From Escherichia coli (GTDB taxonomy: Bacteria; Pseudomonadota; Gammaproteobacteria; Enterobacterales; Enterobacteriaceae): DNA of 64,000 nt. The first letter of the stretch is position 1; each line of letters opens with the position of its first letter. The position numbers are program-made. Positions 54,501 through 57,500 of the stretch are shown here, piece by piece. The stretch lies in NCBI RefSeq assembly GCF_009931435.1, contig NZ_CP043414.1, one strand, 5' to 3'.

Positions 54501-57500
54501 CGGCGACGGCCTTCACCGCCTCCGCCTGATGCTCAATCGACTGGCTGGCGTTATCTTTGATAATGCTGTTGCCACCAATGGCAACGACCACAAGTTCTTT
54601 CATGTTGTTATGTCCGCTACAGAGGGTGATGGGGTTATGACCAACGCCAGACAGCCTGATGCGCTACGCTTATCAGGCCTACAGATTCTTGTGCCATTCG
54701 TAGGCCGGATAAGGCGTCCACGCCGCATCCGGCAATGGTGACAAATGCCTGATGCGCTACGCTTATCAGGCCTACAGATTCTCGCGCCACTCGTAGGCCG
54801 GATAAGGCGTTCACGCCACAACCGGCAATGGTGACAAATGCCTGATGCGCTACGCTTATCAGGCCTACAGATTCTTGTGCCATTCGTAGGCCGGATAAGG
54901 CGTCCACGCCGCATCCGGCAATCGTGACAAATGCCTGATGCGCTACGCTTATCAGGCCTACAGATTCTTGCGCCACTCGTAGGCCGGATAAGGCGTTCAC
55001 GCCGCATCCGGCAATGGTGACAAATGCCTGATGCGCTACGCTTATCAGGCCTACAGATTCTCGCGCCACTCGTAGGCCGGATAAGGCGTTCACGCCACAT
55101 CCGGCATGAACATGTCAGTCAGACGCCGTAACGTTCGCACCAGCCAAGAATGGCTTTCTCGAAGCAGGCGAATGGTGGATGCACAATGCCCGCGCCAATC
55201 ATGCCGACGCCTGCATCTTTATGGGCAATGGCGGTGTTGATCACCGGCAGAATGCCACTGCTACCCACGCGGGTGATGTCGATTGCCGTCGGCACACCCA
55301 TAAAACCGAGCAGCGGAATGGTCACGTTGGGGTTTTCGCCGAGAGTGATTTCGCACATCTGACGGGAGAAATCGATAGCCTCTTCCACCGTACCGCCCAC
55401 CAGCGCGACGATTGCAGGCGCGGTCGCCATAGCAAATCCACCAATGCCGTAGGTTTCGGTGATGGCGCTGTCGCCAATATCCAGCCCCGAATCTTCCGGC
55501 TTATAACCGGCAAACATCGGGCCGATGACCTGTTGCGCCGGGCCGGTAAACCACTGCCCCGGCAGGCCGCTGACTCGCAGGCCGAACTCGACACCATTAC
55601 GCGCCATCGTGGTCACCACGGTGCTGTATTCGATGCCGTGCGCCGCATCCATCGCCGCTTTACACATCGCCATCCACGTCGGGCCGGAGAAGTAGTCGCT
55701 GCTGGCGACAAACTCAAACACTTCGCGCTGTTGCTCGACGGAATAACCCGCCTGAATAATCCCCGGCGTCAGCGCCTGAATCAGCAGCGTCGTCCCGGCG
55801 TTATTGCGGTTATGGCATTCATCGCCCATATGCAGCGCCTGCGCCAGCATCAAGCGCAGATCAATCTCACCGAGAATTTTCATCGCGTCACGCAGCATTG
55901 GCCCCTGCACATCGCGCATCCAGTTGAGGCGGTCAATCACGCTCTGATCGTTGGCACCCATACGCAAAATCTTCGCCATCTGCTCGCTCATATTGGTGTA
56001 AGCGATGTTGCCGAAGGTTTTGTTTTTCACGATGTGCATAAACATCGAGGCAGAGGTAACACCCGCCATCGAACCCACGCAGTCATGCTCGTGGCACGGC
56101 GAGAAAGTGATCTCCCCGGAAGCCGCCAGTTCAGCCGCCTCGTCAAGATCTTTCGCCAGCCCTTCGAACACCAGCGCCCCGGTGACCGCGCCTTTCATCG
56201 CGCCGCACATTTTTTCCCAGGTCACTGGCGGCCCGGCGTGAAGAATGGTTTTCACCGTCATGCCTGGCACCACGTTAATCGCCTGATCAAAACCAATCAG
56301 CACCGGATGCGACTGGATAATGCGTTCCAGCGCCTGCTGGTTAGCGGCGGCGATTTTGTCTGCCAGCGGCGAATCGGCAATGTTGTCCAGTGCCTGCACC
56401 ACCTGCATATTGCCCTGCCCCGGCGGCGTCCAGTCGAGTTGGGTTACTTCTACATGCTGCTTTTTCAGATCATCGCTAAACATAGCGATGCCGACATTAA
56501 TAACGTTCAACGGTTGGCTAAACAGTGACTGGCTCATCAGGCTTCCTCCCCTTTGCAAATAAATTCACGCGCCAGCAATCCGGTATTGGTGCTGCTGCTG
56601 GCCAGAATCACCCCGGCATCAAGCAGCATCTGGCTTTGTTGTGCTAACGATGGCGTATCGAGATCGGTACCCAGCACATAGGCGAGAATGATCAACTCGC
56701 GGCCTTCGGCGGCAGCGATCGCTTTCGCTTCTTTGATCGCCTCGATGGTGGAACCGACCGGATCTTCATGCGATCCAAATCCGAGCACAAAATCCATCAC
56801 GATCACCGCCACTTCTGGATCGCGCGCTTCTTCGATCAACCGGCTGATGCGGTTGGTGGGGTCAATCATTGGATGCGGCTTGCCGTTGGTGAAGTCGTCA
56901 TCGCCAAAGTCGAGGAAGGTGTGTTTGATGCTGCGGTTGATATCTTGCAGGCGGAATTCCGGATCGGGCTGAATGTTGCTGTAGACATCGCCATGTTTTT
57001 CCATCACCGCGAACATGGTTTCGTCACACAGCGTACCGCCGCAGAACAGTCCTCGAATGTATTTCTGCTGCGGTTGCAGGCGAGCGCGCACGTCAGCAAT
57101 CAACGGCTGGTTCAGCGTATGCAGCTCGAGATGTTCCTGTTTCACGCCGGAGAGCATCACCGCTTTCAATGCCGCCTCTTTACTGCCGCGGGCAAACTGT
57201 AGCCCCTGCTCATCCACTGGTGTTTCGCCACGGCCGAGGAAGCAGACCACCACCGGCTTGCGGCAGGCGCGTGCGCGTTCCAGCACTTTGCGGGCCACCG
57301 CAGGCGCAGGCGGTTTGGAGATAAGTACAATGATTTCAGTTTGCGGATCGTTTTCCAGCATCCCGATGGCGTCGAGCATCATCAGGCCGCCGATTTTCTC
57401 GCTCAGGTCGCGCCCGCCGGTGCCAATCAGTTGCGAAATGCCGCCACCAAATTCATGAATGCGGACGCTCAGCTCCTGGCTACCGGTGCCGGATGCGCCA

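What the first reader, a model, noticed from the sequence alone, without database searches (positions are those of the whole stretch)
54625..55105. Five-unit BIME array splitting the yahDEFG and yahIJ gene sets; four more BIME/REP arrays elsewhere
Tandem arrays of about 100-bp REP-pair units occur at 10720-11030, 12985-13272, 35035-35390, 40015-40115 and 54625-55105. The largest sits between yahG and yahI, which are otherwise tightly coupled (ATGA overlaps upstream). BIMEs can stabilise upstream mRNA and bind IHF and gyrase, so this array may set differential expression of the two halves. Array copy number is strain-variable and prone to recombination.
Basis: partly seen in the sequence, partly recalled or inferred. 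Interest (0 to 1): 0.3.

Follow-up and report, generated by a model that had tools for sequence, protein, structure and literature searches.

The report
Known REP array between yahG and yahI
The repeat is real but ordinary: it is the already published E. coli palindromic-repeat (REP/BIME) array that K-12 annotates as the doubtful gene yahH, and its copy number runs from 0 to 5 among strains.

Summary
The array is real. At 54654-55105 there are five 93-bp units, each one Y REP (34 nt) plus one Z1 REP (29 nt) in inverted orientation. That makes ten palindromes between the yahG stop codon (55119) and the yahI start codon (54603), both on the minus strand.

It is already known. K-12 annotates the ORF yahH (b0322) inside it. 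Neuhaus et al. 2016 described the same five-block element (REP23, ORF X002) in O157:H7.

It carries Y+Z1 palindromes with short linkers in tandem. Strictly, this makes it an "atypical BIME". It is neither a BIME-2 nor the IHF-binding BIME-1, and it has no IHF consensus.

Sequenced alleles carry 0, 1, 2, 3, 4 or 5 units. One unit is the commonest and five is the maximum seen.

Of the four other sites, three are tandem Y+Z2 BIME-2 arrays. The site at 40018-40103 is a single pair.

The most likely effect is inferred from the tested REP325 array. The hairpins would stabilise yahDEFG mRNA and attenuate read-through into yahIJ. This was not tested here.

In other Enterobacterales a 516-aa membrane-protein gene lies between yahG and yahI, so the array fills the gap left by a lost gene.

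The parts
54654..55105 (.). Whole array: five Y/Z1 REP pairs (ten palindromes). In mRNA sense the layout is stop-13 nt-[Y-17 nt-iZ1-13 nt]x5-50 nt-ATG.
55013..55105 (-). Unit 1, nearest yahG: Y REP 55072-55105, 17-nt tail-to-tail linker, Z1 REP 55026-55054, 13-nt head-to-head linker.
   Evidence: 98.9% identical to unit 4
54920..55012 (-). Unit 2: Y 54979-55012 and Z1 54933-54961.
54827..54919 (-). Unit 3: Y 54886-54919 and Z1 54840-54868.
   Evidence: identical to unit 5 over the 80 shared nt
54734..54826 (-). Unit 4: Y 54793-54826 (GGTTG variant) and Z1 54747-54775.
54654..54733 (-). Unit 5, nearest yahI: Y 54700-54733 and Z1 54654-54682. It has no trailing head-to-head linker.
55106..55118 (-). 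13-nt spacer between the yahG stop codon (TGA, followed by C) and the first REP stem. It is within the <=15-nt distance at which REPs were reported to lower translation of the upstream gene.
54604..54653 (-). 50-nt yahI leader. The roughly 25 nt next to the ATG (CATCACCCTCTGTAGCGGACA) are conserved in Kluyvera, Raoultella, Citrobacter and Enterobacter. This is probably the native translation-initiation region.
54600..55100 (-). 166-codon mechanical ORF through the array, the counterpart of yahH/X002. It is in frame with yahG. The frame is open from just after the yahG stop codon to a TGA that overlaps the yahI ATG (ATGA).
55119..56537 (-). yahG (AllG-family, 472 aa), upstream of the array.
53653..54603 (-). 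yahI (carbamate kinase family, 316 aa), downstream of the array.
56537..59588 (-). yahD (58977-59588), yahE (58074-58937, AllH family) and yahF (56537-58084, FdrA-like CoA ligase): the upstream half of the cluster.
52261..53643 (-). yahJ (amidohydrolase), 9 nt after yahI.
10732..11018 (.). Other array: Y/Z2 x3, 101-bp units (BIME-2), between the yaiL and frmB homologues.
12988..13270 (.). Other array: Y/Z2 x3, 101-bp units (BIME-2), between mhpE and mhpT. It is the closest paralogue of the yah array (82% to its K-12 counterpart).
35036..35347 (.). Other array: Z2 with a variant Y, about 3.5 units of 94 bp (BIME-2), between prpE and codB.
40018..40103 (.). Single REP pair between prpB and prpC. 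It is not a tandem array.

Best explanation
This is the E. coli REP/BIME element at the yahG-yahI spacer. It is called REP23 by Neuhaus et al. 2016 and is annotated as yahH in K-12. In this strain it has five Y-Z1 pairs.

It is non-coding palindromic repeat DNA of the kind mobilised by the REP-associated transposase TnpA(REP). Its copy number grows and shrinks through recombination or slippage between the 93-bp units.

The cluster is probably transcribed as one unit from yahD to yahJ. The array is then copied into the mRNA as ten stable hairpins in the 3' untranslated region of yahG.

The most likely effect has three parts:
(a) The hairpins block 3'-to-5' exonucleases and so stabilise the yahDEFG part of the message.
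(b) They attenuate read-through into yahIJ, so the putative transcarbamoylase genes (yahEFG) are expressed above the carbamate kinase and amidohydrolase genes. The size of this effect should depend on unit number.
(c) The first hairpin starts 13 nt after the yahG stop codon, so it may also lower YahG translation.

What is shown here: identity, anatomy, hairpin stability and copy-number polymorphism. What is inferred by analogy: co-transcription and steps (a) to (c). The element may have these effects without having been selected for them.
For: Identity. Exact Y and Z1 consensus matches alternate in orientation, with 0 expected by chance. REP sizes of y 35, z1 29 and z2 37 nt come from PMC8266576. 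The unit is collinear with BIME-2 units of mhpE-mhpT and REP325, apart from the 7-nt shorter Z palindrome.

Same locus. K-12 has four pairs with yahH annotated on them. EHEC has five blocks, REP23/X002, in a suggested yahDEFGIJ operon. The array is transcribed there at RPKM 87.7.

Polymorphism. Alleles with 0, 1, 2, 3, 4 and 5 pairs were read directly. Non-adjacent units are the most alike (units 1 and 4, 98.9%; units 3 and 5, identical), which points to block-wise recombination.

Hairpins. The Y hairpin folds at -21.2 kcal/mol and Z1 at -11.5 kcal/mol. The whole spacer folds with z = -6.3 against shuffles.

No sigma-70-like promoter or intrinsic terminator lies on the yah strand of the spacer.

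Mechanism by analogy. REP325 has six Y/Z2 pairs inside yjdMN. Deleting it raised the downstream gene about 8-10 fold and lowered the upstream mRNA. Termination there is partly Rho-dependent, and only with the full array.

The <=15-nt rule for translational down-regulation is summarised in PMC12306157. The distance here is 13 nt.
Against: No transcript, half-life or protein data for this locus were examined.

The REPs face the opposite way relative to transcription compared with REP325.

The second palindrome is the weaker Z1 rather than Z2.

The array RNA is not C-rich (C/G 0.91, against 1.28 for REP325). This makes Rho loading less likely.

About 13% of sampled E. coli have no REP here and about 42% have one pair. 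The five-unit state is therefore not required.

Harris et al. report large locus-to-locus variance in REP effects.
Confidence: 0.72

Rival explanations
1. Neutral passenger. The array is selfish or drifting repeat DNA that colonised a dispensable spacer. Any effect on yah expression is incidental and not maintained by selection.
For: Copy number ranges from 0 to 5, with 1 the commonest and 0 in about 13% of sampled strains. The spacer exists because a 516-aa membrane-protein gene present in other Enterobacterales is missing. Different lineages have filled it with different palindromes: Y/Z1 REPs in Escherichia, another GTAG-type REP in Kluyvera, and other GC hairpins elsewhere. Every BIME locus in the window differs in unit number from K-12.
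Against: This view is compatible with the physical effects proposed above, so it rivals only the claim of selected function. All five Z1 copies are identical. LF82 Y REPs carry compensatory stem changes, so the hairpin structure itself is maintained, possibly only for mobility.
Confidence: 0.3
2. DNA-level role. The array acts mainly as a gyrase binding or cleavage site, or a topological barrier, as described for BIME-2.
For: Gyrase cleavage sites are enriched in BIME-2 and fall mostly in Y REPs. This array has five Y REPs and the same linker family as BIME-2 units.
Against: The published evidence concerns Y+Z2 elements, and this array has Z1. No locus-level gyrase data were found in the held supplements. 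Only a subset of BIME-2 is cleaved.
Confidence: 0.15
3. Protein-coding gene yahH. The ORF through the array is translated into a repetitive, basic, cysteine-rich protein.
For: K-12 RefSeq and PGAP annotate yahH or a hypothetical protein here. Neuhaus et al. report ribosome footprints on X002 (RPKM 56, coverage 0.61). In the window a 166-codon ATG ORF spans the array.
Against: ORF length and frame follow unit number and 1-nt linker indels: 166 codons here, against 106 aa annotated in K-12. No open stretch of 40 or more codons exists in the 0- and 1-unit alleles, which together make up about 55% of sampled strains. The ATG lies inside the first REP stem with no Shine-Dalgarno sequence. Six of the seven sites that vary among the five repeats change the amino acid. 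No protein family matches, only summed spurious hits. The period of 93 = 31 codons keeps any stop-free frame open mechanically. Footprint reads on REPs map to many loci.
Confidence: 0.04
4. naRNA4-like nucleoid-associated RNA. The units encode HU-binding RNAs that condense the chromosome.
For: Rfam RF02564 (naRNA4) matches four units at 70-78 bits, above the gathering score of 59.5.
Against: The passing matches are on the + strand, antisense to the yah genes. The mRNA-sense matches score 47-56 bits, below threshold. The model matches head-to-head REP pairs in all four tandem arrays in the window, 12 matches in total, so it is a generic REP-pair detector. The 2026 re-examination found no nucleoid compaction by REP325 or naRNA4.
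Confidence: 0.03
5. IHF-binding BIME-1 (RIP/RIB-type) element.
For: It contains the BIME-1 palindrome types Y and Z1.
Against: The tail-to-tail linker is 17 nt, not the long L motif. There is no IHF consensus (WATCAANNNNTTR) in this or any other array in the window. It is tandem, not single-copy (for the definitions).
Confidence: 0.02

Closest known systems
REP23 / yahH (b0322) of E. coli K-12, and X002 of O157:H7 EDL933 (Neuhaus et al. 2016, PMC4765031)
   Same: Same locus, same Y/Z1 units, same flanks and the same repeated peptide frame (MRRERLIRPT...). EDL933 also has five blocks.
   Different: The window allele is 96% identical to the O157 allele. Its mosaic of unit variants differs, and it has no 1-nt linker deletion. 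Its array ORF therefore stays in one frame and ends on the yahI ATG. K-12 has four units.
REP325 between yjdM and yjdN (Qian 2015, PMC4550694; Harris 2026, bioRxiv 10.64898/2026.03.23.713779)
   Same: A multi-unit tandem REP array inside an operon between co-directional genes, with the same Y palindrome and the same linker families. It is the experimentally tested model for combined attenuation and stabilisation.
   Different: REP325 has six Y/Z2 pairs (a true BIME-2). Its REPs face the opposite way relative to transcription. It lies 18 nt from the stop codon and its RNA is C-rich (C/G 1.28, against 0.91 here).
BIME-2 family (Y + Z2, S linker, tandem)
   Same: Alternating inverted palindromes, short tail-to-tail linker, tandem repetition and strain-variable number.
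   Different: The Z palindrome is the 29-nt Z1, not the 37-nt Z2. By the published scheme the element is therefore an atypical BIME.
BIME-1 / RIP / RIB (Y + Z1 flanking an IHF site)
   Same: Uses Y and Z1 palindromes.
   Different: No long L linker, no IHF consensus, and tandem rather than single-copy.
Classical REP mRNA stabilisers such as malE-malF (Newbury et al. 1987; cited from my own knowledge, not read here)
   Same: REP hairpins in the 3' region of an upstream cistron within a polycistronic message, proposed to set differential expression.
   Different: Those loci have fewer REPs and have direct mRNA evidence. This locus has none.

Membership tests
E. coli REP (palindromic unit) | Imperfect palindrome of 29-37 nt with GTAG/CTAC at its foot, matching the y, z1 or z2 consensus | tested here: met
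   Five exact Z1 and five Y copies (0-2 mismatches), with 0 expected by chance. Sizes are from PMC8266576.
E. coli REP (palindromic unit) | Stem-loop interrupted by an internal mismatch | tested here: met
   The minimum-energy fold of Y is ((((((((.((((....)))).)))))))) at -21.2 kcal/mol. Z1 folds at -11.5 kcal/mol.
E. coli REP (palindromic unit) | Extragenic location | tested here: met
   It lies wholly between the yahG stop codon (55119) and the yahI ATG (54603). The only overlapping ORF is the doubtful yahH.
E. coli REP (palindromic unit) | Cognate TnpA(REP)/RAYT gene in the genome | not testable with these tools
   The K-12 gene (yafM, from my own knowledge) lies outside the region the window covers. 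No search was made.
BIME-2 | Y palindromes alternating with Z2 palindromes | tested here: not met
   The Z palindrome is the 29-nt Z1. Published BIME-2 loci (REP325, sucB-sucC, tldD-yhdP) carry the long Z form.
BIME-2 | Short tail-to-tail linker (S), tandem copies, number variable between strains | tested here: met
   17-nt linker homologous to those of the mhpE-mhpT and REP325 units. Five copies here and 0-5 among strains.
BIME-2 | Bound and cleaved by DNA gyrase | not testable with these tools
   No locus-level data in the held supplements of PMC6379681.
BIME-1 (RIP/RIB) | Y plus Z1 palindromes | tested here: met
BIME-1 (RIP/RIB) | Single pair separated by the long L linker that carries an IHF site | tested here: not met
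   17-nt linker, five tandem pairs, and no WATCAANNNNTTR in any array.
Atypical BIME | Chimeric combination of BIME-1 and BIME-2 motifs, in multiple tandem copies | tested here: met
   Y + Z1 with S-like and s-like linkers, x5.
Rfam RF02564 naRNA4 | Covariance-model score at or above the gathering threshold (59.5 bits) | tested here: inconclusive
   Met on the + strand for four units (70-78 bits). Not met on the strand transcribed with the yah genes (47-56 bits).
Rfam RF02564 naRNA4 | Expressed as a discrete HU-binding RNA | not testable with these tools
   No expression data. The proposed nucleoid role is itself disputed.
Protein-coding gene yahH | ORF conserved in presence, length and frame among strains | tested here: not met
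   No stop-free stretch of 40 or more codons in the 0- and 1-unit alleles. Frame and end point change with 1-nt linker indels.
Protein-coding gene yahH | Substitution pattern or family membership typical of a protein | tested here: not met
   Six of seven variable sites among the five repeats are non-synonymous. No genuine Pfam or NCBIfam match.
REP325-type intra-operon attenuator/stabiliser | Multi-hairpin REP array between co-directional genes of one transcription unit | tested here: met
   Ten hairpins between co-directional yahG and yahI. No promoter-like or terminator-like site on that strand. Co-transcription is suggested in EHEC but not shown here.
REP325-type intra-operon attenuator/stabiliser | Raises the ratio of upstream to downstream mRNA; partly Rho-dependent | not testable with these tools
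   No transcript data. The C/G ratio of 0.91 argues against a strong Rho loading site.
REP translational down-regulator (Liang et al. 2015, as summarised in PMC12306157) | REP stem begins 15 nt or less after the stop codon of the upstream gene | tested here: met
   13 nt in the window, K-12 and O157. It is 23 nt in EC12 and LF82. The effect on YahG was not tested.

The most novel reading that the evidence does not exclude
In this lineage the array is a translated bridge.

The frame of yahG stays open for 172 codons, from just after its stop codon (UGA followed by C, a weak termination context by my recollection) to a UGA that overlaps the yahI AUG. Ribosomes could enter this frame by read-through, or at the AUG inside the first REP.

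Such ribosomes would melt the hairpins and suppress Rho-dependent attenuation, which is reported to disappear when a BIME is translated. They would then be delivered to the yahI start codon.

Unit number and 1-nt linker indels would then switch coupling between the two halves of the operon on or off in different strains. The frame is intact in the window, 2020CK-00188, LF82 and EC12, and broken in K-12, O157:H7 and PSS-04.
Probability: 0.06. Interest if true: 0.45.

Novelty: already known. Interest (0 to 1): 0.1.

Why it matters
It matters little beyond good annotation.

- The array should be labelled as a REP/BIME repeat, not as a gene, and not as an IHF site.
- It illustrates that intra-operon REP arrays differ in unit number between strains (0 to 5 here). 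They could therefore tune the ratio of upstream to downstream gene expression without any change in promoters or coding sequence.
- The yahG-yahI locus offers a natural allelic series for testing that idea, because the two halves encode steps of one putative pathway: AllFGH-like transcarbamoylase subunits, then a carbamate kinase.
- One small new point is that the spacer is the gap left by a lost membrane-protein gene and has been filled by different palindromic repeats in different genera.

Tried and rejected
1. I first labelled the array BIME-2 from memory, with the Z1 and Z2 names swapped. I rejected this after typing published BIME-2 loci (REP325, sucB-sucC, tldD-yhdP) and reading the stated REP sizes. 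The array carries Z1.

2. IHF consensus scan: five matches in the window against 2.5 expected by chance, none inside an array.

3. Promoter and terminator scan of 54300-55400: one weak promoter-like site on the + strand, at chance level, and no terminator.

4. Rfam: only naRNA4, which matches the REP pairs of all four tandem arrays and scores best on the antisense strand. I rejected it as evidence for a specific RNA gene.

5. Pfam and NCBIfam scans of the array ORFs: only summed spurious hits with no significant stretch.

6. Locus-level gyrase data: none in the held supplements of PMC6379681.

7. Literature gaps: Ton-Hoang 2012 has no held supplements, and Liang et al. 2015 is not held. I used the summary in PMC12306157 instead.

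8. Expression values for yahG and yahI in the EHEC supplement: only the X002 row was found.

9. The 516-aa membrane protein of related clusters has no Pfam, NCBIfam or PDB sequence match.

10. An exact census of unit number in all 5,426 genomes was not possible, because only 60 rows are returned per search. I used two evenly spaced samples instead.
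Full report
**What is in the sequence**

Tandem Repeats Finder reports one array at 54654-55106, with period 93, 4.9 copies, 94% matches and score 822. It is the highest-scoring repeat in the window.

The 29-nt palindrome GCCTGATGCGCTACGCTTATCAGGCCTAC occurs five times there without a mismatch. The 34-nt palindrome GCCGGATGCGGCGTGAACGCCTTATCCGGCCTAC occurs five times on the other strand with 0-2 mismatches. Shuffled sequence gives no match to either.

The genes are on the minus strand. Read in mRNA sense, the spacer is:
- yahG stop codon (TGA, 55121-55119);
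- 13 nt;
- [Y, 17-nt tail-to-tail linker, inverted Z, 13-nt head-to-head linker] five times;
- 50 nt;
- yahI ATG (54603).

Gene identities follow from the K-12 annotation and from Pfam:
- yahE: AllH family
- yahF: FdrA-like CoA ligase
- yahG: AllG family
- yahI: carbamate kinase
- yahJ: amidohydrolase

The array therefore lies between putative transcarbamoylase subunits and a carbamate kinase.

The main observation is correct. The details need correction.
- The other tandem arrays are at 10716-11032, 12988-13270 and 35029-35370. The site at 40018-40103 is one REP pair only.
- REP sites at 28099, 28779, 32254 and 42855 were not listed.
- The upstream junctions are an 11-nt overlap (yahE/yahF) and a 1-nt TGATG overlap (yahF/yahG), not ATGA.
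- The missing letter H is explained. K-12 annotates yahH (b0322, 321 nt) inside the array, and PGAP calls "protein YahH" or "hypothetical protein" there in many genomes.

**Which kind of BIME**

I first called the array BIME-2 from memory. That was wrong because I had the Z1 and Z2 names reversed.

PMC8266576 gives y = 35 nt, z1 = 29 nt and z2 = 37 nt. Three loci that the literature calls BIME-2 all carry the long Z form (one search names two of them):
- REP325, between yjdM and yjdN
- sucB-sucC
- tldD-yhdP

The yah array therefore has Y + Z1.

In the published scheme (PMC3333891):
- BIME-1 is a single Y-Z1 pair around a long L linker with an IHF site.
- BIME-2 is tandem Y-Z2 with a short S linker.
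- Chimeras in multiple copies are called atypical BIMEs.

The yah unit aligns column for column with BIME-2 units of mhpE-mhpT and REP325. The Y palindrome and both linker families are the same. The one real difference is the 7-nt shorter centre of the Z palindrome. It is thus an atypical BIME: BIME-2 architecture with Z1.

No IHF consensus lies in this or any other array in the window. The three other tandem arrays in the window are true Y/Z2 BIME-2.

**It is already described**

Neuhaus et al. 2016 (PMC4765031) describe the same locus in O157:H7 EDL933. Their account includes:
- a REP element (REP23) of five repeated blocks in the gap between yahG and yahI;
- a 465-nt ORF, X002 = yahH;
- RNA RPKM of 87.7 and ribosome-footprint RPKM of 56;
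- a suggested operon, yahDEFGIJ;
- a discussion of DNA, RNA and protein roles.

The peptide they list (MRRERLIRPTNGARICRPDKRSASGICHHCR...) is in the same frame as the window's 166-codon ORF at 54600-55100.

Variation of BIME unit number between strains at a given locus is also published.

**Copy-number variation, checked directly**

I read the spacer in eight genomes.

| Y/Z1 pairs | Spacer length (nt) | Strain |
|---|---|---|
| 0 | 95 | EC-10 |
| 1 | 142 | STEC1589 |
| 2 | 246 | EC12 |
| 3 | 328 | PSS-04 |
| 4 | 421 | K-12 |
| 4 | 422 | 2020CK-00188 |
| 4 | 432 | LF82 |
| 5 | 514 | O157:H7 |
| 5 | 515 | the window |

Two evenly spaced samples of the ranked hits from 5,426 complete genomes gave the following. 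The collection is biased towards sequenced clones, so these are rough figures. One further sampled chromosome (span 734 nt, 66% of the query covered) could not be assigned a unit number and is left out of the table.

| Units | Count (of 89 chromosomes with the locus, both samples pooled) | Share |
|---|---|---|
| 5 | 7 | about 8% |
| 4 | 24 | about 27% |
| 3 | 5 | about 6% |
| 2 | 3 | about 3% |
| 1 | 37 | about 42% |
| 0 | 12 | about 13% |
| more than 5 | none | - |

The window's five units differ from those of O157:H7 in their mosaic of variants. Its nearest relative at this locus, 2020CK-00188, has four units. Expansion to five has therefore probably happened more than once.

Within the window, units 1 and 4 are 98.9% identical and units 3 and 5 are identical. 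Neighbouring units are 93.5-96.8% identical. This fits block-wise unequal recombination.

All other BIME loci in the window also differ in unit number from K-12.

**Why there is a gap here**

A scan of one genome per species with the YahI N-terminus returned 66 loci.

The order yahG - 516-aa polytopic membrane protein - yahI - yahJ is found in:
- Providencia, some Proteus and Serratia;
- most Citrobacter, a Klebsiella and Cedecea;
- Yokenella and Trabulsiella;
- the ColV plasmid p1ColV5155.

The membrane-protein gene is missing, and the gap is 79-315 nt, in:
- Escherichia, Kluyvera and Raoultella;
- Klebsiella spallanzanii;
- one Enterobacter;
- C. amalonaticus.

That gap holds lineage-specific palindromes:
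- Y/Z1 pairs in E. albertii, E. whittamii and Escherichia sp. E1V33;
- a different GTAG-type REP pair in Kluyvera sichuanensis and K. ascorbata;
- CCCTCTCCC...GGGAGAGGG hairpins in other Kluyvera and in K. spallanzanii;
- other GC hairpins in Raoultella, Citrobacter and Enterobacter.

The 95-nt "empty" E. coli allele carries a hairpin of the CCCTCTCCC kind. E. whittamii keeps a fragment of that spacer next to its REPs. The empty allele may therefore be the older state.

The wide distribution of the membrane-protein form suggests that its absence is a loss. I did not build a tree to test this.

About 25 nt just upstream of the yahI ATG are conserved across genera. This is probably the native ribosome-binding region.

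**How it most likely works**

Shown here:
- The spacer RNA folds far better than shuffles (z = -6.3).
- Each Y hairpin is worth -21.2 kcal/mol and each Z1 hairpin -11.5 kcal/mol.
- No promoter-like or terminator-like site lies on the yah strand.
- The first stem begins 13 nt after the yahG stop codon.

Inferred:
- The best tested analogue is REP325, six Y/Z2 pairs inside yjdMN.
- REP325 stabilises the upstream mRNA. Deleting it raised the downstream gene about 8-10 fold.
- Its partial Rho dependence appears only with the full array.
- REPs within 15 nt of a stop codon are reported to lower translation of the upstream gene.

I therefore expect the array to favour yahDEFG mRNA over yahIJ, more strongly with more units, and possibly to reduce YahG output.

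Caveats:
- The REPs face the opposite way relative to transcription compared with REP325.
- Z1 is a weaker hairpin than Z2.
- The array RNA is not C-rich (C/G 0.91, against 1.28 for REP325).
- REP effects vary widely between loci.
- Many strains have one pair or none.
- The effect may be real without being selected.

**Rival readings**

*A protein-coding yahH is unlikely.*
- The ORF exists only because 93 = 31 codons and two frames of the unit lack stop codons.
- Its length and end point change with unit number and with 1-nt linker indels.
- It is absent from the 0- and 1-unit alleles.
- Its ATG lies in a REP stem without a Shine-Dalgarno sequence.
- Six of the seven variable sites among the repeats change the amino acid.
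- No protein family matches.

*The Rfam naRNA4 matches are generic.*
- They match head-to-head REP pairs in all four tandem arrays in the window.
- They pass threshold only on the antisense strand here.
- The proposed nucleoid role of naRNA4 was not reproduced.

*Gyrase binding is possible.* The array has five Y REPs, the type cleaved most often. It is documented only for Y/Z2 elements.

*IHF binding is excluded by the sequence.*

**The least ordinary detail**

In the window the yahG reading frame continues open for 172 codons beyond its TGA. It ends in a TGA that overlaps the yahI ATG. The same holds in 2020CK-00188, LF82 and EC12. It does not hold in K-12, O157:H7 or PSS-04, where a 1-nt linker deletion shifts the frame.

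Attenuation by BIMEs is reported to vanish when they are translated (cited). A translated bridge is therefore conceivable. About one frame in three would end there by chance, and I give this reading a low probability.

**Verdict**

This is a real, well-formed and already published E. coli REP array at a known polymorphic locus. The IHF claim is wrong for this class, and the functional idea is reasonable but untested.

The window itself is E. coli from a sparsely sampled lineage. It is 99.1% identical to strain 2020CK-00188 in the mhp genes and about 95% identical to K-12.

Noticed in passing
L011 6331-7881 (- strand); L015-L080 (e.g. L025 5156-6703): Many Enterobacterales and a ColV plasmid carry a conserved 516-aa polytopic membrane-protein gene between the yahG and yahI homologues. 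It has no Pfam, NCBIfam or PDB sequence match. Escherichia, Kluyvera and Raoultella lack it, and the REP array sits in that gap.
   Followed up: partly
window 46865-51301: Four minus-strand ORFs encode a sugar-type ABC transporter: a binding protein, an ATPase and two permeases. They lie between yahJ and yahK. This roughly 5.2-kb segment (46936-52200) has no counterpart in K-12.
   Followed up: partly
window 20707-22468: Two ORFs lie between the mhpR and lacI homologues where K-12 has nothing: a weak metal-dependent hydrolase match and an FtrA-like AraC-family regulator.
   Followed up: partly
window 8102-8267: The K-12 segment that carries yaiO, yaiX (with IS2), yaiP and yaiS, about 5.2 kb, is absent from the window at this point.
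   Followed up: no
window 1659-4611: This stretch, adjoining hemB on its yaiT-ward side (K-12 388752-391699), is only 86.7% identical to K-12. The rest of the window is 93-97% identical.
   Followed up: no
By K-12 mapping they lie between lacY/lacA, cynX/lacA, codA/cynR and yahO/prpR.
   Followed up: partly
window 10732-11018, 12988-13270, 35036-35347, 40018-40103: Every one of these BIME loci differs in length from K-12. K-12 has about one more unit at yaiL-frmB, about 160 nt more at mhpE-mhpT, and about 280 nt more at prpB-prpC. The window has about 188 nt more at prpE-codB.
   Followed up: partly
L007 (LF82) 595-1050: Two Y REPs of the LF82 array carry paired inner-stem changes (GGCG/CGCC to GACA/TGTC) that keep the hairpin intact. 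Two of its Z1 copies are also diverged.
   Followed up: no
L017 (E. albertii), spacer upstream of 8903: The two Y/Z1 pairs are separated by a duplicated copy of the last ~50 nt of yahG plus the junction. The duplication there included flanking coding sequence.
   Followed up: no
L064, L073 (Kluyvera sichuanensis, K. ascorbata), yahG-yahI spacer: The same spacer holds an inverted pair of a different GTAG-type REP (GTAGCCCGGGCGAGGCGTTTACGCCGACCCCGGG...). The site has been colonised independently by another species' REP family.
   Followed up: no
window 54635-55093 (- strand) and L001 9270-9590: Translated REP ORFs reach a summed NCBIfam score of 56 bits for the cell-division inhibitor SidA model, whose cut-off is 35 bits, with no single significant stretch. 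This is a route to false names for REP-derived ORFs.
   Followed up: no
window 54537-54564 (+ strand): A weak sigma-70-like site (TCGACT-16-GATAAT) lies inside the 5' end of yahI and points antisense into the array. One such site is expected by chance in this stretch.
   Followed up: no
L023, L024 (Pseudocitrobacter MAG and P. faecalis DSM 27453): Their YahG, YahI and YahJ are 98% identical to the window's proteins, and the spacer carries E. coli-type REPs. This is unexpectedly close for another genus and suggests transfer or contamination.
   Followed up: no
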